From: Escherichia phage pO2
DNA: 39,037 nucleotides
Sequence record: OR228483.1
Direction: 5' to 3' (one strand)
Part shown: positions 120 to 38,363 of the stretch, in pieces
Numbering within the stretch: the stretch's first letter is position 1
Layout of the letters: every line of letters begins with the position of its first letter
Program-made: the position numbers and the translations under genes
The notes under the pieces: generated by a model
The model's input: only the letters and a program-made list of their open reading frames with translations
What the model was told of the DNA's origin: nothing
The model's database searches: none

Positions 120-237
120 CTGTAGGTCTTTGACTGTAGGATGTGAGTGTCTTATGGTTGATACTGTAGGTTAGTCAGACTGTAGGTTGTAGGACTGTAG
201 GTTGTAGGACTGTAGGTTATAGGACCTATGGTTATAC
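120..237. repeat. Cluster of short CTGTAGG(T) direct repeats, including four tandem 15-bp units (GACTGTAGGTTGTAG-like) at 178..237; analogous in position to the short repeat arrays near T7 genome ends
   Basis: CTGTAGG at 120, 134, 164, 180, 195 and 210; 15-bp period read directly; lies beyond the last gene at the genome right end. Confidence 0.6.
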
Positions 238-21405: not shown

Positions 21406-21678
21406 TTAATCAAACTGAACGGTATCTTTCAGCTCACGACGCATAGCAATCGCAGAGTCGAGAGTGTCAGAACAATACTGGAGACCCTTGATGAACCCGG
21501 CAATGAACGCATCGCTGTAGCCTTGCTGCTTGAGGAGACTGATAGCTCCCATCTTCTCAGCGTAGCTTGCGTTGAACAATACGTGCAGGAACTGGATAGC
21601 AGACTGTGAGATGTTCGGGACATCAAGTCTTTCTTCCTGTAACTGCTTAACAACGTTTTCAATAGCAGTAATAGCCAT
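21406..21678 (-). CDS. gp6.5-like protein (by position)
   Basis: 90 aa; AGAGGAG before ATG; follows the phi6.5-like promoter. Confidence 0.55.
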   Translation of the reverse strand: MAITAIENVVKQLQEERLDVPNISQSAIQFLHVLFNASYAEKMGAISLLKQQGYSDAFIAGFIKGLQYCSDTLDSAIAMRRELKDTVQFD

Positions 21679-21739
21679 CTTGAATCTCCTCTTTAAGTTA
21701 AGACTAAAGTCTATCTTATAGTCATATCTTAGGTCCTAA

Positions 21740-21762
21740 AGTCCCTATAGTGATAGTTTAGT
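21740..21762 (-). promoter_or_regulatory. Phage RNA polymerase promoter (phi6.5-like)
   Basis: + strand GTCCCTATAGTGATAGTTTAGTG. Confidence 0.65.
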
Positions 21763-21814
21763 GTTTCACCTATGGATGACTGTTGGATTGATAGGATATG
21801 ACTATCGGCTAGAC

Positions 21815-21907
21815 TCAGTGTTTAGGGCGGTTGTTCGACCCGAACCACTTGTACATGCAGTAAAGGGCAAGAAGTCCTACCCAGTAAATTACATGGGTGG
21901 TGTCCAT
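21815..21907 (-). CDS. Small hydrophobic protein, 30 aa (gp6.3-like position)
   Basis: ATG at 21907 preceded by AGGAGG; MDTTHVIYWVGLLALYCMYKWFGSNNRPKH; overlaps last codons of gene 6; below ORF-track cut-off. Confidence 0.35.
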   Translation of the reverse strand: MDTTHVIYWVGLLALYCMYKWFGSNNRPKH

Positions 21908-22758
21908 AGGATGACCTCCTTGGACTTAGGGTCATAGTCAGATGCTCGACAAATACGAGCGACCTGAGCTTGGACCAGAAGTTCCTCCTCGGTCATGCCA
22001 GCCTTAGCAGCCAGTGTAACCATGCAGTCCCACAGCGTCATGTCTTCACGCTTCGGATACTTCTTCCATTCGGTCTTAATCTGGCCTTTGTTCTTGCCAG
22101 TCTTAAGCTCACGGCTCTCCTGCACGAAGTAGTACGGCTCGTCAAGGAACGCACGAGTGGTGTCCTCACCCATCCCCGGAATACCACCATAGCCATCTGT
22201 AGTGTCACCCTTGATGGTCTGCTCCATGTGCCAATAGTCTGCCTCAGCAGTCGTATGACTCAGGATTTCACCAGTGGTTAACCAGAAGAACTCACAGTTC
22301 GGGATGGTCTTGAAGTCCTTGTCACAGGACACCAGAACCGCATGATCACAGTCAACAATCTGAGGTCGGGTCCCGATGATACCCATACAGTCATCACCTT
22401 CAAGCGTAGGACGCAGGAAGCTGTTGAACCGTGGGTCAGCCATCACTTCGGCTACGAACTTCTTGTAACCTACAGGCTTGCGGGAACCTTTACGGTTGGC
22501 CTTATAGGTTGGCAGAACGTCCTTACGCCAGTTGTAATCGTCGGTGAAGCACATCACAATCTTAGCGTCTTTCCACGCCTTGCGCTTCTTAACGATTTCA
22601 GCGATGGTGTTCTCAAGGATACGACGAGCCTTGGCGTGGTCGCAGATAAGGGTCCAGATGTCATCACCCCAGTCTGTCTCGTCCTCGGCAGCAGCCATAG
22701 AAGAGAATACTAGGTAATCGCCATCAAGAACAAGAGCTATCTTCTTCTCAGCACCCAT
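21889..22758 (-). CDS. gp6: 5-prime to 3-prime exonuclease
   Basis: T7 gp6-like (CDHAKARRILE, WRKDVLPTYKANRK, DKDFKTIPNC, WDCMVTLAAKAGMTEE); start at ATG 22758 with AGGAGG, overlapping the upstream gene stop. Confidence 0.92.
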   Translation of the reverse strand: MGAEKKIALVLDGDYLVFSSMAAAEDETDWGDDIWTLICDHAKARRILENTIAEIVKKRKAWKDAKIVMCFTDDYNWRKDVLPTYKANRKGSRKPVGYKKFVAEVMADPRFNSFLRPTLEGDDCMGIIGTRPQIVDCDHAVLVSCDKDFKTIPNCEFFWLTTGEILSHTTAEADYWHMEQTIKGDTTDGYGGIPGMGEDTTRAFLDEPYYFVQESRELKTGKNKGQIKTEWKKYPKREDMTLWDCMVTLAAKAGMTEEELLVQAQVARICRASDYDPKSKEVILWTPPM

Positions 22759-23197
22759 CGTCCAGACCTCCTGTAGCCATAGCGACTGCATATGGCATCA
22801 AGGGCACTTTCGGCTCCTCTATACGTTCGAGAGTCACCTCAGGCTTCAGCCATTTGTTGGCGAACTCATGGGCCTTGTCGTTGTCCTCTGAGTTTAGGTG
22901 TGACATCAGGTTCCAGAAGTTTGAAGACATCTCAGTCTCCTTCTCAACTTGGCGGCACACGTCCCAGTCGTTTACCTCTGAACCGTATCTGTCATCCCAC
23001 ATACCGCTAGCTACGATGGTCAGTCCGATGAATGGACGCCACTCATAAGCCTCAGCGGGAGACTCGGTGTATGACTCAACGTCCTTCTCTGTCAAGGTGT
23101 ATGACCAAGATGCGTAGAACTCACCGTACTTGCGGTGCTCCTTATCGAATTCACCCATTTCAAGGACCAGCTCTTTCAGACTTTCAGGTATCTTCAC
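22748..23197 (-). CDS. Hypothetical protein, 149 aa, acidic
   Basis: ORF between gp5.7 and gp6 (the T7 gp5.9 position) but much larger and unrelated by eye; GTG start with GGAGG. Confidence 0.6.
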   Translation of the reverse strand: MKIPESLKELVLEMGEFDKEHRKYGEFYASWSYTLTEKDVESYTESPAEAYEWRPFIGLTIVASGMWDDRYGSEVNDWDVCRQVEKETEMSSNFWNLMSHLNSEDNDKAHEFANKWLKPEVTLERIEEPKVPLMPYAVAMATGGLDDGC

Positions 23198-23403
23198 AGA
23201 CAGCCTCCGTGTTGGTTAAGGAACTTGGTGCCAGCAGCGGTAATCTCCCACGCACCGTTGTTACGCCCATCCATAGACAGGCAGCTTAGATGTCCACGAC
23301 TCGCAGCCTCAGCCACAAGTGCAGCGTTGTTGCGCACATAGTTGGACTGGAATGTCTTCGGGCAGGACTTAAGGGCCGCTAGGACCCGTAAGTATTCACT
23401 CAT
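23194..23403 (-). CDS. gp5.7: gp5.7-like protein
   Basis: 69 aa; KSCPKTFQSNYVRNNAALVAEAASRGH resembles T7 gp5.7 as recalled. Confidence 0.7.
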   Translation of the reverse strand: MSEYLRVLAALKSCPKTFQSNYVRNNAALVAEAASRGHLSCLSMDGRNNGAWEITAAGTKFLNQHGGCL

Positions 23404-23684
23404 TGCTTGACCTCGAATCGCAGGTTGGACACACCGGACTGACCCTCACCAAAGGAGTCTACCAGCTCCTCCTTGATGATCTTCTTGGTGACAATTTCAA
23501 TGGCAGACTCAGGGCCTGACTCTATTGCTGCTTTGACCATAGCCATCTGAAGCCCATCCAGCTTCTCACCATCAGCGTAGGCTTTAGTCATCTCAGCCAG
23601 TTGGCGACACACTGTCTCTTCTCTCTTTGAGCTAACAACCATCTTCAGGTCAAAACTCACACGAATACGTTTAGTAATAGCCAT
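23400..23684 (-). CDS. gp5.5: gp5.5-like protein
   Basis: 94 aa, MAITKRIRVSFD start, position after DNA polymerase. Confidence 0.6.
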   Translation of the reverse strand: MAITKRIRVSFDLKMVVSSKREETVCRQLAEMTKAYADGEKLDGLQMAMVKAAIESGPESAIEIVTKKIIKEELVDSFGEGQSGVSNLRFEVKQ

Positions 23685-23842
23685 TAGTCTTCTCCTTCTT
23701 CGTTATGTTCTTTCAGAATTTCACGAATGTCTCGACTGCACTGTCCACTGAGGTTTGGACTATAACGAGACTCCTCGTGTCCACACCACCAAGCTGACCG
23801 CATCAGGTCTTTGACCTCCTGCTCACTATAAGTTTTAGCCAT
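23684..23842 (-). CDS. Small protein, 52 aa (gp5.3-like position)
   Basis: ATG at 23842 overlaps DNA polymerase stop (TAATG); MAKTYSEQEVKDLMRSAWWCGHEESRYSPN...; stop overlaps gp5.5 start. Confidence 0.35.
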   Translation of the reverse strand: MAKTYSEQEVKDLMRSAWWCGHEESRYSPNLSGQCSRDIREILKEHNEEGED

Positions 23843-26028
23843 TAGTGACACTCCTTCCACGTTGGTCCAATCTTACCTTCGGTATCAAGGACACATTTAA
23901 AGTTATAGAACTCACCCACCTTACGCATAGCAAGTTGAGCAATCTTGACGACTTCTTCGGCAATCTCCTGAGTACGGCACGCAATCTGTAGCTCATCGTG
24001 AACCCAAGCCATGTACGCGAAGTCTCCTTCCCAGCCATGAACATACCCGGCCTCTTCGAGCATACGTTCAGTCTCAACAATCCAGTGCTTACAGACTACC
24101 GCACCATCACCTTGAAGTAAGGCGTTCAGTGCTGAGTGTGGCGACCGGATGTGGATACGGCGACCATCGAGTCCACGCAACCAACGGCGTTTCCACTTGA
24201 CGATGTTCTCTCCGTCCACCCACTTAGAGTCTGAGATTAACGTATTACTCACAGCTTCCCTGAGGTCTTTGATGGCTGGTGTACCCTCAATGAATTTCTT
24301 CATGAGAGCTGAACCTTCCTTCTTACCACCGCCGACTATCAGTCCAATCTTAGCGGCCCCTGCACCATACAGGAACGCATAGATGAACGTCTTAGCGTTG
24401 TTACGGAAAGCATCATGGTCGTGGTTCGATTTATCGCGTGGGACGTTAGGTGCTAACCCAGCGTTGACTGCGTTGGCCCAGTGGATGTCACCTTCGACCA
24501 CAGTCTTCGCATAGGCACCACCATCAAACGGAGCTGCTCGGTTCCCCAGACAACGAAGCTCAAGACCTGAGGCATCCACACCCACTTGAATCCAAGGGTC
24601 TGGTAATTGTCTTCCATCCGGGAACGTCAGCTTGTTCCACGCTGCACCGAAAGCACCACGGCAAATCTCACCGTATGGAGCACCGTTAGCCGGGACCTGA
24701 GCCATGTTTGGTGTACTATGAGTCGCACGTCCGGTTACTGCCCCGCATGGGTTGATTGAACCGTGCATACGTCCGTCTGGGCCTACAAGTTTCAACCATG
24801 CGTTCTTACCTTCAGCCGCCTGACCGATGCGCTTCTGGACTACCAGATACTCACGGACCAGCTCTACGCAAGCCTGAGCCTCTGCGTCTGGTAGCTTAAC
24901 GTGTTCTAACGTCTCGTCATCGACTACAGGTTTCCCAGTGTCAGTGAAGTCCACAGGCTCCCAACCACGCTCCATCAAGACTTTCGCTAAGTGGTCTCCG
25001 CTTCCCGGATTAAACTCAACGTAAGTGATTGGCGTGAACGGTGCTCCTTCCATCGTGTCTCGTGAGTCGAACTCGCAAGGCTCCAGACCTAAGCGTTGAG
25101 CTTTGTTCTTCGGCTTCTTGAATACTGACCCGACCTTAGGATACACGACTCGCGGATACTTCGGAAGGTCCTTGCCTGTCCGTGGGTGCTTGAAGAACTC
25201 CTTGCCTCCCTTTGGTGCATACCAGCTACCGAAAGTCGAACGCAGCTTGTCCAACAACTCTGCACGTTTGACGGTGAGTTCACGATATAAGCCTTCGACC
25301 ATCTCGGTGTTCATCGGATAGCCGTTACGCTCCATCTTCGCACAGGTCCACGCAGCATCATGTTCCAGACGCAACGCATAAATCTGGTCGAAAGCGAACT
25401 GTTCAGACTGGAAGTAATACTTGTCAGTCAGGAACTTCTTGAACAACGCCAGTGTGACCACAACGTCTTGAACGTTATAGTCTAGCATCTCCTGAGATGG
25501 GAACAACCATTCGTCCCCAGCCTTATATTCGATACCTTCAGCCTTGCACTTGGCAACGTAATCGTGTTTGTACTCACCTTTCATCTCACCGAGACGATAG
25601 CCCCAAGCCTCAAGAGACTGGCGTCCCATCATCTTAGGTGGCAGACGACCAGCTTTCACTGCGCCCATGTCTGAGAACTTAATGTTTGGATACATCAAGC
25701 GTCCCAGCACCAAGGTATCAATCATCTTGTGTTTCGGGAAGTTAAAGCGTTTCCCAAAGTACAGACGCTTTAGCTTGTCAATAGCCGGGACGTCATAGTT
25801 GATACCGTTGTGGAATACCAGCATACCATCAGGTGATGCGGCAATCTCTTCCACCTTCTGTACATACTCTTTGAAGCCACCGACGATACCGACCATCGGA
25901 GCTACCCCATACTTAAGGGTCTCATTCGACTCGGCGTTAATCAGGACCCCACAGTGAAACTGGGAGACTGTATCAAGGAGACCGTTGGTCTCTATGTCGG
26001 AACCCCAGATACTCTTAAGGTCAAACAT
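23842..26028 (-). CDS. gp5: DNA polymerase (family A) with thioredoxin-binding-domain-like insertion
   Basis: Strong identity to T7 gp5 (FHCGV, WGYRLGEMKGEYK, FGSWY, PKYPR, FAYMAWVHDE); start at ATG 26028 with GGAGG; ORF-track start 26064 is an upstream GTG. Confidence 0.96.
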   Translation of the reverse strand: MFDLKSIWGSDIETNGLLDTVSQFHCGVLINAESNETLKYGVAPMVGIVGGFKEYVQKVEEIAASPDGMLVFHNGINYDVPAIDKLKRLYFGKRFNFPKHKMIDTLVLGRLMYPNIKFSDMGAVKAGRLPPKMMGRQSLEAWGYRLGEMKGEYKHDYVAKCKAEGIEYKAGDEWLFPSQEMLDYNVQDVVVTLALFKKFLTDKYYFQSEQFAFDQIYALRLEHDAAWTCAKMERNGYPMNTEMVEGLYRELTVKRAELLDKLRSTFGSWYAPKGGKEFFKHPRTGKDLPKYPRVVYPKVGSVFKKPKNKAQRLGLEPCEFDSRDTMEGAPFTPITYVEFNPGSGDHLAKVLMERGWEPVDFTDTGKPVVDDETLEHVKLPDAEAQACVELVREYLVVQKRIGQAAEGKNAWLKLVGPDGRMHGSINPCGAVTGRATHSTPNMAQVPANGAPYGEICRGAFGAAWNKLTFPDGRQLPDPWIQVGVDASGLELRCLGNRAAPFDGGAYAKTVVEGDIHWANAVNAGLAPNVPRDKSNHDHDAFRNNAKTFIYAFLYGAGAAKIGLIVGGGKKEGSALMKKFIEGTPAIKDLREAVSNTLISDSKWVDGENIVKWKRRWLRGLDGRRIHIRSPHSALNALLQGDGAVVCKHWIVETERMLEEAGYVHGWEGDFAYMAWVHDELQIACRTQEIAEEVVKIAQLAMRKVGEFYNFKCVLDTEGKIGPTWKECH

Positions 26029-26052
26029 GGTTAATCCTCCGTTTAGTCTAAT

Positions 26053-26088
26053 CATAAAGGCCACTCGATGTGAATGACCTTGAGTCTA
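26053..26088 (-). promoter_or_regulatory. Conserved hairpin element (candidate RNase III site, R4.7-like), copy 2 of 3
   Basis: CATAAAGGCCAC...TGACCTTGAGTCTA just upstream of the DNA polymerase gene. Confidence 0.45.
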
Positions 26089-26091
26089 GAC

Positions 26092-27971
<1,880 letters not shown>

Positions 27972-28018
27972 TCACTCCTTAATCACGAATGCGAACAAAG
28001 GGACAGGACTTATTGTCC

Positions 28019-28041
28019 CATCCCTAAGGTGATAGTTTAGG
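28019..28041 (-). promoter_or_regulatory. Variant phage promoter (phi4-like), CACCTTAGGG in place of CACTATAGGG
   Basis: + strand TCCCTAAGGTGATAGTTTAGG upstream of gene 4. Confidence 0.5.
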
Positions 28042-30791: not shown

Positions 30792-30944
30792 CTCAGGACG
30801 AATCCGTCCGACCACAAACCCAGCGTCCTCATACTCTTGGGACTTCAGGGTAGCCTCTTCAAGAGACTTTGCGTACACAGGAACCTCGAAGGACTGAACG
30901 CGACCCTCAAGCTCCACGATGTATTTCTTCTCAACCTCAGTCAT
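30786..30944 (-). CDS. gp2: Inhibitor of host RNA polymerase (gp2)
   Basis: 52 aa, hand-found: [35 protein letters not shown] matches T7 gp2 ([35 protein letters not shown]); AAGGAGA before ATG. Confidence 0.75.
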
Positions 30945-31060
30945 AAAATCTCCTTGTCGAGAATCTCTTCCAGCTTAACAAGTTCCTCTTCGGATAAATC
31001 AGTGAAGTCCACGAACTCCTTAATAAGCTGACACACAAAGTTAATCTGGTCTTGGTTCAT
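30941..31060 (-). CDS. Small acidic protein, 39 aa (gp1.8-like position)
   Basis: ATG at 31060 preceded by AAGGAG; stop overlaps gp2 start; ORF-track version 30941..31138 starts at a GTG with no ribosome-binding site. Confidence 0.4.
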
Positions 31061-31138
31061 AAACCGCGCTCCTTCCATTGGTTGTATAACGTAATGTAGT
31101 CCGGGTTGAGAGTCTTCTCGTACATCTCCCGGCACCAC

Positions 31139-37715: not shown

Positions 37716-37860
37716 CAGCGTGTAAACTATCGTGTATGCGCTTGCGTCTCCTGTAGACCACTTTCAAGAGACGCATGGCCTCCTCGTGGTTTAACCGCCC
37801 GGTTTTGACCAAAATCCTGGCGTTGGTGACGTGGTGCTGGCAGAGACCATAAGTTACCAT
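37711..37860 (-). CDS. Small basic protein, 49 aa, translationally coupled to the Ocr-like gene
   Basis: Hand-found: ATG 37860 overlaps Ocr stop (TGATG); [49 protein letters not shown]. Confidence 0.3.
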   Translation of the reverse strand: MVTYGLCQHHVTNARILVKTGRLNHEEAMRLLKVVYRRRKRIHDSLHAE

Positions 37861-38363
37861 CACTCGCAATCCTCAGCAGCAGGGTCAAACACTACGTTAT
37901 CGTTGATGTCTTCCACCTTCAGGTGGCGACCTATCGCATAGAAGTCTTTTGCACATGCAGTAGCGACCTCAAGAGCTACAGCTTGCACAATTATTTCGCC
38001 TGTTTTAGCGTCAACTACCCAATATTCATCCTCTTCGTCTGCCTCTTCATCCTCAAACCAGACTACATCCAAGCTATTAGACACATCGTTATAAAGCGCC
38101 TCATAGATGCGAGCTTGTAGGATACGCGTTACGTCCTTGGTTTCAGGCATCAGCCCAGAGTCTTCGAACTCGTGGTCTATACCATCAGCAGCCATCACCG
38201 TGAAAATCTCGTGGTAATAGTTCGGGACCTGACCGTCTACGACCTCATGCAGCGCATCGCTGTAGTCATCGCCTTCAGCTATTTCGTCGTACTGAATACG
38301 CTCATTGAACATCTCAACGGTTGCAGCCAGCAGCTCATAGTATGCGTTAGCATTACGTTCCAT
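37860..38363 (-). CDS. ocr: Ocr-like anti-restriction (DNA mimic) protein with about 50-aa C-terminal extension
   Basis: Residues ~15-115 match T7 Ocr ([43 protein letters not shown], acidic tract); 167 aa versus 117 in T7; GAGGA before ATG. Confidence 0.85.

What the first reader, a model, noticed from the sequence alone, without database searches (positions are those of the whole stretch)
22748..23197. Uncharacterised acidic 149-aa protein at the gp5.9 position
It occupies the slot of the small T7 RecBCD inhibitor gp5.9 but is three times larger and acidic; it could be a different DNA-mimic or nuclease inhibitor. The start is a GTG with a good ribosome-binding site overlapping the gp5.7 stop.
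Basis: inference. Interest (0 to 1): 0.48.

Follow-up and report, generated by a model that had tools for sequence, protein, structure and literature searches.

The report
Composite acidic protein in gp5.9 slot
A K1F-like phage carries, where T7 keeps its RecBCD inhibitor gp5.9, a real accessory gene of unknown function; it is not a gp5.9 homologue, but one short helical piece of it is shared with a large branch of the gp5.9 family and its core resembles that branch's neighbouring gene in other phages, which gives testable clues to what it does.

Summary
A 149-aa acidic ORF (pI 4.5, net -16) lies on the minus strand at 22748-23197, between gp5.7 and the gene 6 exonuclease. It has a GTG start, an upstream GGAGG and a GTGA overlap with the gp5.7 stop. 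It is under purifying selection (dN/dS 0.18) and sits inside a phage-promoter transcription unit. It belongs to a small phage-only family (phrog_4382; 54 clusters among 1.84 billion proteins) with no Pfam match and no solved-structure relative. It has no gp5.9 domain (HHalign 0.1%), and the genome has no gp5.9 gene. The slot is a hypervariable accessory site that is empty in K1F. New here: residues 89-117 form a helix-loop-helix homologous to the N-terminus of a widespread subfamily of Pfam gp5.9 proteins (HHalign 93%). Residues 6-90 are a remote homologue of the protein encoded just downstream of, and overlapping, those gp5.9-type genes in Chaseviridae (92%). A sister Kayfunavirus carries a hairpin-plus-gp5.9-domain gene in this same slot. 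I infer, without proof, that the protein binds a host protein in the same pathway as gp5.9-type inhibitors, with RecBCD the prime candidate. Classic DNA mimicry is untested and looks unlikely.

The parts
22748..23197 (-). Complete CDS of the 149-aa acidic protein (stop codon at 22748-22750)
   Evidence: phrog_4382 E 6.6e-45; dN/dS 0.18
23204..23208 (-). Shine-Dalgarno GGAGG, 6 nt before the GTG start; it lies inside the 3' end of gp5.7
   Evidence: conserved in orthologues
22934..23197 (-). Residues 1-88: alpha+beta core (helix 5-14, strands 16-21 and 26-34, helices 37-43 and 47-56, strands 59-68 and 72-86). Nearly invariant E13, G15, H21, R22, F27, G65, W67, D69, G72.
   Evidence: AF2 pLDDT about 90; alignment A2; HHalign to Chaseviridae gp59-like proteins 91.9%, E 6.8e-7; Foldseek BFVD hit to Y2 Gp59
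22847..22933 (-). Residues 89-117: helix-loop-helix insertion 'MSSNFWNLMSHLNSEDNDKAHEFANKWLK'. It is homologous to the N-terminus of gp58-type Pfam PF25708 proteins and is absent from short members of the family.
   Evidence: phrog_6163 E 1.8e-4; HHalign 93.2%, E 3e-7, 45% identity; gp5.9-family HMMs hit only here in the genome, E 1e-7 to 9e-7; AF2 helices 89-98 and 103-116 against helix 3-16, loop, helix 23-52 in P0222
22823..22846 (-). Residues 118-125: last strand of the sheet (strand 120-125)
22751..22822 (-). Residues 126-149: predicted-disordered tail 'EEPKVPLMPYAVAMATGGLDDGC'. It is shared with an unrelated basic protein in the same slot of phage SP7. Its last 9 codons contain the gene 6 SD (22771-22767) and ATG (22758-22756).
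   Evidence: pLDDT <50
23194..23403 (-). gp5.7 homologue (left conserved flank of the cassette; its stop overlaps the target's start)
   Evidence: 94% nt identity to Kayfunavirus PDP351P4 up to 23194
21889..22758 (-). Gene 6 5'-3' exonuclease (right conserved flank). The likely start is ATG 22758, giving an 11-nt overlap with the target ORF.
   Evidence: homology with PDP351P4 resumes at 22776 (89%)
22777..23193 (-). Cassette-specific DNA, unrelated to the gp5.9-type cassette in the same slot of Kayfunavirus PDP351P4
28003..28040 (-). Nearest upstream copy (a variant) of the phage RNA-polymerase promoter family. The next copy downstream is at 21744-21770, and no terminator-like site was found across the scanned 21500-26500, so the target is co-transcribed with genes 5 to 6.

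Best explanation
SHOWN: this is a real, co-transcribed, translationally coupled, non-essential accessory gene of a Kayfunavirus. It sits in a recombination hot-spot between gp5.7 and the gene 6 exonuclease. Its product has three parts. (i) An acidic alpha+beta core belonging to a small phage-only family with no solved-structure relative. (ii) A 29-residue helix-loop-helix inserted before the last strand, homologous to the N-terminal hairpin of a widespread subfamily of Pfam gp5.9-family proteins. (iii) A disordered tail, partly dictated by the gene 6 translation-initiation signals. In Chaseviridae the same two modules are split between two overlapping genes: hairpin plus gp5.9 domain in the first, and a hairpin-less core in the second. 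In Kayfunavirus the target cassette and a hairpin-plus-gp5.9-domain cassette are alternative occupants of one slot. Genomes carrying the hairpin-in-cis form have no gp5.9 domain anywhere. INFERRED: the protein is a stoichiometric binder or inhibitor of a host protein in the pathway targeted by gp5.9-type proteins. That pathway is host processing of DNA ends, with RecBCD the prime candidate; MukBEF or a defence system that guards RecBCD are alternatives. It would act through the conserved hairpin displayed on the core, not as a coiled-coil DNA mimic.
For: Real gene and expression. Family and fold: phrog_4382 E 6.6e-45; 54 clusters among 1.84e9 representatives, nearly all stand-alone 100-140 aa; AF2 model. 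Acidity is conserved in all 104 members (net -8 to -20). Hairpin homology: 93.2%, E 3e-7; E 1e-7 to 5e-10 among 3,546 segments, all five positive controls found. Third codon positions are only 29% identical while amino acids are 50% identical, so conservation is at the protein level. The hairpin-bearing partners are true PF25708 members: 9 of 9, best E 6.6e-18, and at least 1,202 clusters. Core to gp59 link: HHalign 91.9%, E 6.8e-7 over 80 columns; Foldseek BFVD hit to Y2 Gp59 at probability 1.0; reciprocal HMM hits in the correct register. Coupled gp58/gp59 pairs, with the 8-nt overlap read from annotations in five phages (Y2, PP101, 4HA13, Faunus, SNUABM_27) and adjacency by coordinates or ORFs in Aioli, Nougat, Farigoule, PM1, phiA050 and TH53. 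Same-slot alternative in Kayfunavirus PDP351P4, whose gp5.7 is 100% identical, with sharp cassette boundaries. No gp5.9 domain in the window, SH-Kp 152234, Jarilo or SUSP1 genomes. Family members recur in DNA-metabolism modules, next to the 5'-3' exonuclease in three T7-like lineages.
Against: There is no direct evidence for any target. The slot also holds unrelated families, some basic, and is empty in K1F, so position alone says little. The co-occurrence sample is too small to show significant mutual exclusion. Divergent core-family members in four other contexts have no gp5.9-type gene within 6 kb, and some lack the hairpin, so the core can function without any gp5.9 link. The hairpin may be only a packing or dimerisation element exchanged between neighbouring genes. 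The core-gp59 homology is marginal in HMM-versus-sequence searches (E 0.0025-0.0096, with one false hit at 0.019). Only T7 gp5.9 itself has been shown to inhibit RecBCD (PMC9836394); the gp58-type subfamily is annotated by similarity. The hairpin has no counterpart in T7 gp5.9.
Confidence: 0.38

Rival explanations
1. An accessory host-takeover or anti-defence protein with a target unrelated to RecBCD or gp5.9. The slot is simply a hot-spot that accepts any small gene, and the hairpin is a structural helix-loop-helix exchanged or inherited between genes that have been neighbours.
For: At least six unrelated families occupy the slot and K1F has none. The core family occurs without hairpin and without a gp5.9-type neighbour in several lineages. 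The hairpin's hydrophobic faces are what a packing element would show (sequence).
Against: The hairpin is far more conserved (45-50% identity, invariant H-L-N-x-E-x-N-x-M-A) than the cores (19%), despite saturated synonymous sites. The coupled gene pair is conserved across Chaseviridae genera down to 40% identity. The genome-level distribution is complementary.
Confidence: 0.35
2. A classical DNA-mimic protein: an acidic surface imitating the DNA backbone blocks the DNA-binding site of RecBCD or another nuclease, in the manner of gp5.9, Gam or Ocr.
For: Net -16, pI 4.47, and acidity conserved in all 104 family members. The gene is in the gp5.9 slot of a phage lacking gp5.9.
Against: Charge density is -0.107 per residue, against -0.154 for T7 gp5.9 and a median of -0.209 for gp5.9-type proteins. 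The predicted fold is a globular alpha+beta domain rather than an elongated helical dimer. No structural match to any solved DNA mimic. The phage already encodes an Ocr-like mimic.
Confidence: 0.1
3. A nucleotide-metabolism accessory factor, for example a regulator or inhibitor acting on host or phage dNTP-pool enzymes.
For: In Ounavirinae the family member lies between nrdD and nrdG. In Chaseviridae it follows dUTPase and dNMP kinase. In a marine contig it is near NT5C, dNMP kinase and dUTPase.
Against: These regions are general early/middle DNA-metabolism modules packed with small unknown genes. There are no enzyme-like conserved residues or cofactor motifs, and no Pfam or NCBIfam match. In T7-like phages the neighbour is the exonuclease.
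Confidence: 0.1
4. The core is only an adaptor or chaperone for a gp5.9-type partner and has no activity of its own. The window's copy would then be a partner-less remnant.
For: Overlapping gp58/gp59 genes in Chaseviridae. gp5.9 is toxic to cells (PMC9836394, PMC7617805).
Against: The window's gene is under purifying selection (dN/dS 0.18), is conserved in about 54 Kayfunavirus records at 80% identity or more, and these genomes lack any gp5.9 domain.
Confidence: 0.05

Closest known systems
T7 gp5.9 (Pfam PF25708 Phage_T7_Gp5_9; RecBCD and MukBEF inhibitor, DNA mimic; PDB 8B1R, 9GMD)
   Same: Same genomic slot between gp5.7 and gene 6. Both are acidic, non-essential class II accessory genes. 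Residues 89-117 of the target are homologous to the N-terminal hairpin of the gp58-type subfamily of PF25708.
   Different: No gp5.9 domain (no PF25708 hit; HHalign 0.1%). 149 aa against 52 aa. Predicted alpha+beta globule instead of a parallel coiled-coil dimer. Half the charge density. The hairpin is absent from T7 gp5.9 itself.
gp58-type gp5.9-like proteins (phrog_6163 / PF25708; e.g. Erwinia phage Y2 gp58, Pectobacterium PP74 gp27, Kayfunavirus PDP351P4 slot gene)
   Same: Shared 'F..LMSHLN(S/A)E(E/D)N.MA.EF' helix-loop-helix in the same predicted register. Alternative occupant of the identical slot within the genus.
   Different: Those proteins continue into a long helix, a 'GVDNW' motif and a poly-acidic tail (the gp5.9 domain) and have no beta-sheet core. 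The target has the core and lacks the gp5.9 domain.
Chaseviridae gp59-like proteins (phrog_24684; e.g. Y2 gp59, PP101 orf50)
   Same: Remote homologues of the target's core (residues 6-90), equally acidic (net -14), uncharacterised.
   Different: They lack the hairpin and are always encoded right after, and overlapping, a hairpin-bearing gp5.9-type gene. The target carries the hairpin in cis and has no such neighbour.
phrog_4382 proteins of Przondovirus, Jarilovirus and Ounavirinae (e.g. SH-Kp 152234 gp28, Jarilo gp26, SUSP1 gp068)
   Same: Same family (28-46% identity), same core plus hairpin architecture; same pre-gene-6 slot in the T7-like members.
   Different: They lack the Kayfunavirus-type tail. 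In Ounavirinae the hairpin motif is degenerate and the gene lies between nrdD and nrdG.
Other phage RecBCD modulators and DNA mimics (lambda Gam, P22 Abc2, Ocr)
   Same: Small acidic phage accessory proteins; possible functional analogy.
   Different: No sequence or structural similarity was detected.

Membership tests
T7 gp5.9 family (Pfam PF25708) | Sequence match to the PF25708 profile at or above its gathering score | tested here: not met
   No PF25708 hit at E<=1. HHalign of the target family against the gp5.9 domain alignment gave probability 0.1%. Positive controls score 27.8-52.5 bits.
T7 gp5.9 family (Pfam PF25708) | Small (about 50-85 aa), helical, parallel coiled-coil dimer | tested here: not met
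   149 aa. AF2 predicts a five-stranded sheet with helices. Oligomeric state is not testable here.
T7 gp5.9 family (Pfam PF25708) | Extreme acidity (pI about 4.0) | tested here: inconclusive
   pI 4.47 and -0.107 per residue, against -0.154 for T7 gp5.9 and a median of -0.209 for 120 PF25708 proteins.
T7 gp5.9 family (Pfam PF25708) | Position between gene 5.7 and gene 6 | tested here: met
T7 gp5.9 family (Pfam PF25708) | Binds RecBCD and blocks DNA binding | not testable with these tools
   Needs biochemistry or multimer modelling.
gp58-type subfamily of PF25708 (phrog_6163) | N-terminal helix-loop-helix with invariant H-L-N-x-E-x-N-x-M-A | tested here: met
   Target residues 99-108 are HLNSEDNDKA (M in most orthologues). 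phrog_6163 E 1.8e-4; HHalign 93.2%; HMM E 1e-7.
gp58-type subfamily of PF25708 (phrog_6163) | C-terminal gp5.9 domain (long helix, GVDNW motif, acidic tail) | tested here: not met
   HMM alignments stop at profile position about 31 of 66; A3 profile has no hit.
phrog_4382 (uncharacterised acidic phage proteins) | Full-length profile match and conserved core motifs (EHRKY.EFY; G.W.D.YG.E) | tested here: met
   E 6.6e-45 over residues 1-130; alignments A1 and A2.
Chaseviridae gp59-like (phrog_24684) | Profile-level homology of the beta-sheet core | tested here: met
   HHalign 91.9%, E 6.8e-7 and a Foldseek BFVD hit. HMM-versus-sequence evidence is only marginal, so treat this as a remote relative, not a member.
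Chaseviridae gp59-like (phrog_24684) | Encoded immediately downstream of, and overlapping, a gp58-type gene | tested here: not met
   The upstream gene in the window is gp5.7, and there is no gp5.9-type ORF in the genome.
DNA-mimic proteins in general | Structural resemblance to a known mimic, or a DNA-like array of surface carboxylates | tested here: inconclusive

The most novel reading that the evidence does not exclude
The target's family is a previously unrecognised component of the phage anti-RecBCD repertoire. The conserved 'LMSHLNSE(E/D)NDMA.EF' hairpin would be a portable docking element for RecBCD (or for another gp5.9 target, or for a RecBCD-guarding defence). Phages would display it either on a new-fold acidic core (Kayfunavirus, Przondovirus, Jarilovirus) or on a gp5.9 DNA-mimic domain that works with a separately encoded core (the Chaseviridae gp58/gp59 pair). 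That would make a two-part inhibitor system found in fused and split forms.
Probability: 0.2. Interest if true: 0.75.

Novelty: new variant of a known kind. Interest (0 to 1): 0.5.

Why it matters
RecBCD is a hub of bacterial immunity, and gp5.9 is now known to hit MukBEF as well and to trigger guard systems such as retron Ec48 (PMC9836394, PMC7617805). Only T7 gp5.9 has been studied, yet the Pfam family has more than a thousand clusters, most carrying an N-terminal hairpin that T7 gp5.9 lacks. This finding ties a second, uncharacterised family with no detectable known fold to that hairpin and to the gp5.9 slot. It also supplies a natural experiment: same-genus phages with identical flanks that carry the target, a gp5.9-type gene, other cassettes, or nothing. 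If the link is functional, it reveals a modular inhibitor system in fused and split forms. If it is not, it documents a well-defined accessory-gene hot-spot in T7-like phages that can be used to mine or insert anti-defence genes.

Tried and rejected
(1) Direct homology to T7 gp5.9. An eyeballed similarity (FWNLMSHLNSEDND against VWNDIQGYIDSLEREND) was rejected: BLASTP, tblastn and HHalign found nothing, and the Pfam-consistent alignment places T7's W13 opposite the 'LWRECLE' segment of gp58-type proteins, not the hairpin.
(3) Pfam, NCBIfam, PADLOC and a PDB sequence profile returned nothing meaningful. The PADLOC hit PDC-M02B (E 0.0038, 14 bits) was judged noise.
(4) The 58-aa ORF after the Przondovirus homologue was considered as the 'real' gp5.9. 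It is basic and unrelated (phrog_12303).
(5) The L094/PP74 protein was first read as a one-off chimera. That was rejected because it represents a family with 122 phage records and at least 1,202 clusters.
(6) I looked for a single-chain protein combining core and gp5.9 domain. None appeared among the 120 best hits, which are all 57-85 aa. phrog_4790 could not be examined, and the PAK_P1 neighbours are not core-like.
(7) I looked for gp5.9-type genes next to divergent family members. None was found in six loci.
(8) The resemblance of the tail 'AMATGGLDDG' to the gp5.9 motif 'ALEAGGVDNW' was set aside as probably coincidental, because those codons carry the gene 6 SD and ATG.
(9) Literature searches found nothing on this family or on the gp58/gp59 pair.

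Full report
WHAT IS THERE. The window is essentially a whole Kayfunavirus (K1F-like, T7-related) genome, read on the minus strand; the best DNA matches are 96% identical. The ORF 22748-23197 (-) encodes 149 aa. Its GTG start (23197-23195) overlaps the gp5.7 stop as GTGA. GGAGG lies 6 nt upstream (23208-23204). Its last 11 nt overlap gene 6, whose likely start is ATG 22758. Most orthologues have ATG at the same position; the window's GTG results from a synonymous change in the last Leu codon of gp5.7. The protein has pI 4.47 and net charge -16, the third most acidic per residue of 50 ORFs. The gene order, gp5.5-gp5.7-target-gene 6, matches T7's 5.5-5.7-5.9-6.

IS IT A REAL, EXPRESSED GENE? Yes, by inference from several results. 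dN/dS is 0.18 over 8 alleles, compared with gp5.5 at 0.28, gp5.7 at 0.09 and gene 6 at 0.04. Homologues extend to about 25% identity. AlphaFold2 gives pLDDT of about 90 for residues 1-88 and about 77 for 89-125. The phage's own promoter family (minus strand CTAAACTATCACTATAGG) has its nearest upstream copy at about 28,020 and the next at 21,744-21,770. No terminator-like site was found across the scanned 21,500-26,500. The gene is therefore co-transcribed with genes 5 to 6 and coupled at both ends.

THE FAMILY. The protein matches phrog_4382, of unknown function (E 6.6e-45). Nothing was found in Pfam, NCBIfam, PADLOC or the PDB sequence set. An exhaustive profile search of 1.84 billion representatives found only 54 clusters, nearly all stand-alone 100-140-aa proteins. 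Members occur in:
- about 54 Kayfunavirus records at 80% identity or more;
- Przondovirus (127 aa, about 43% identity, same slot);
- Jarilovirus (same slot);
- another T7-like contig (short form, same slot);
- Ounavirinae myoviruses (between nrdD and nrdG);
- a Proteus phage and marine contigs.

NOT A gp5.9. T7-type gp5.9 is confined to T7-, T3- and Yersinia-phage-like genomes (187 records, none a Kayfunavirus). The window contains no gp5.9-like ORF in any frame. A profile-profile comparison of the target family with the gp5.9 domain gives 0.1% probability. According to the structural papers, gp5.9 is a 52-aa, pI 4.0, parallel coiled-coil dimer that mimics DNA on the RecB arm and also blocks MukE (PMC9836394, PMC7617805). 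The target shares none of these architectural features.

THE SLOT IS A HOT-SPOT. I classified the interval between gp5.7 and gene 6 in 80 IMG/VR loci anchored on gp5.7. It ranges from empty (-7 nt, as in K1F itself) to about 574 nt. It holds at least six unrelated families:
- the target family;
- basic 68-94-aa proteins (phrog_2251);
- basic 58-60-aa proteins (phrog_12303);
- acidic 96-120-aa proteins (phrog_18166);
- true gp5.9-family proteins;
- other, unclassified ORFs.
Occupying the gp5.9 position is therefore weak evidence on its own, and the gene is dispensable for the core life cycle.

THE NEW LINK TO gp5.9-TYPE PROTEINS. (1) One slot occupant (Pectobacterium phage PP74 type, 73 aa) is a bona fide Pfam Phage_T7_Gp5_9 member: 35.3 bits against a cut-off of 24.5. 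Its N-terminal 30 or so residues ('FDALLGHLNAEENGMALEL') match the target's residues 89-117 ('FWNLMSHLNSEDNDKAHEF'). This had already shown up as a secondary phrog_6163 hit.

(2) This hairpin-plus-gp5.9-domain architecture is a large family: 122 phage records and at least 1,202 clusters, all 57-85 aa and all PF25708-positive. HHalign of the target family against it gives 93.2%, E 3e-7, 45% identity over target residues 86-116. gp5.9-family HMMs run over complete six-frame genomes hit the target-family gene, and only that gene, in the window, SH-Kp 152234 and Jarilo. The hits are solely through profile positions 2-31 (E 1e-7 to 5e-10), and all five positive controls were recovered. An AF2 model of the Kayfunavirus gp5.9-type protein P0222 has helix 3-16, loop LNGEEN and helix 23-52. 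That is the same helix-loop-helix register as the target.

(3) In Chaseviridae the gp5.9-type gene is followed by a 124-134-aa acidic gene (phrog_24684). An 8-nt overlap is annotated in Y2, PP101, 4HA13, Faunus and SNUABM_27; adjacency is seen by coordinates or ORFs in Aioli, Nougat, Farigoule, PM1, phiA050 and TH53. That downstream protein is a remote homologue of the target's core: HHalign 91.9%, E 6.8e-7, target residues 6-90 against gp59 residues 19-102. Y2 Gp59 was also a Foldseek neighbour of my model. HMM-versus-sequence support is only marginal (E 0.0025-0.0096 among 4,549 segments, with one false hit at 0.019). These Chaseviridae cores lack the hairpin.

(4) Kayfunavirus PDP351P4 has a gp5.7 100% identical to the window's, and it carries a hairpin-plus-gp5.9-domain gene in exactly this slot. 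Flank identity is 94% up to the gp5.7 stop (23194) and 89% from 22776 onward, and the DNA between is unrelated. In the hairpin, amino-acid identity is 12/24 but third-codon-position identity is 7/24. The similarity is therefore maintained by selection on the protein and is not a recent DNA exchange.

INTERPRETATION. The target is a composite: a core plus a hairpin in cis. Chaseviridae encode the hairpin, fused to a gp5.9 domain, and the core in two coupled genes. Kayfunaviruses carry either the core-plus-hairpin protein or the hairpin-plus-gp5.9-domain protein at one locus. By Rosetta-stone logic and by gene neighbourhood, I infer that the target works in the same pathway as gp5.9-type proteins, namely binding and neutralising host DNA-end machinery, with RecBCD the prime candidate. 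It would use the hairpin on a globular scaffold rather than DNA mimicry. Confidence is about 0.38. 

The main rival, at about 0.35, is an unrelated accessory function in which the hairpin is merely a structural element shared between former neighbours. Points in favour of the rival: hairpin-less and partner-less family members exist, the slot accepts anything, and only T7 gp5.9, which lacks the hairpin, has been tested experimentally. Classic DNA mimicry (0.1) is disfavoured by the halved charge density and the globular fold. A role in nucleotide metabolism (0.1) rests only on loose neighbourhood evidence.

THE TAIL. Residues 126-149 are predicted to be disordered. They are shared with an unrelated basic slot protein of phage SP7. 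The last nine codons encode the gene 6 SD and start codon. I treat the tail as a junction module rather than part of the functional domain, though this was not tested.

VERDICT. The gene is a member of a known but uncharacterised family. Its composite architecture and its relationship to gp5.9-type genes are, as far as the searchable literature shows, undescribed. Function remains unproven, and decisive tests are listed under next steps.

Noticed in passing
window 22777-23193 and loci L015-L094: The gp5.7-to-gene 6 interval is a hypervariable accessory-gene slot in Studiervirinae. It ranges from empty (K1F) to about 574 nt, holds at least six unrelated families, and has sharp boundaries at the gp5.7 stop and about 18 nt before the gene 6 ATG.
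   Followed up: yes
window 22751-22822 (-): The 24-residue tail EEPKVPLMPYAVAMATGGLDDGC is shared with the unrelated basic 92-aa slot protein of phage SP7. A second tail type (…TVAAMSIAKEVFGE) is likewise shared between different N-terminal domains. The last nine codons carry the gene 6 SD and ATG.
   Followed up: partly
L095 1456-2098; L098 1495-2071; L100, L101, L103: Chaseviridae conserve the order dUTPase, gp5.9-type gene, acidic roughly 130-aa gene, with an 8-nt overlap between the last two. Phage flopper has the first of these two genes but not the second.
   Followed up: yes
window 37860-38363 (-): The most acidic ORF in the genome (167 aa, net -34) is an Ocr-like anti-restriction protein (phrog_2568, E 4.7e-54), so the phage already encodes one DNA mimic.
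   Followed up: partly
window 30941-31138 (-): A 65-aa ORF with net charge -10 (-0.154 per residue, as acidic as T7 gp5.9) has no PHROG match. It could be another small inhibitor.
   Followed up: no
window 1002, 6104, 13380, 17927, 18923, 21744, 30773, 33479, 36557 (variants near 28023 and 31754): A family of phage RNA-polymerase promoter-like repeats, CCTATAGTGATAGTT(T/A)AG on the + strand, i.e. promoters firing on the minus strand.
   Followed up: partly
window 178-236: Tandem 15-nt repeats (GACTGTAGGTTGTAG) near the start of the window, probably part of the genome-end repeat region.
   Followed up: no
window 22756-22791: The mechanical ORF list starts gene 6 at ATG 22791. Orthologue annotations (870 nt) and the SD at 22771-22767 fit ATG 22758 instead.
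   Followed up: partly
L104 842-1353; slot cluster 6 in L091, L093, L074: Other slot cassettes are shared with large myoviruses. The acidic 96-120-aa slot family hits a PHROG annotated 'ribonucleotide reductase' (phrog_2294). In Pseudomonas phage PAK_P1 an NrdA.1-like gene directly precedes a hairpin-less gp5.9-type gene.
   Followed up: no
L112 140-508: A divergent, hairpin-less member of the family (P0057, 122 aa) also lies between a gp5.7-like gene and the 5'-3' exonuclease in an unrelated T7-like metagenomic contig, overlapping the exonuclease start.
   Followed up: partly
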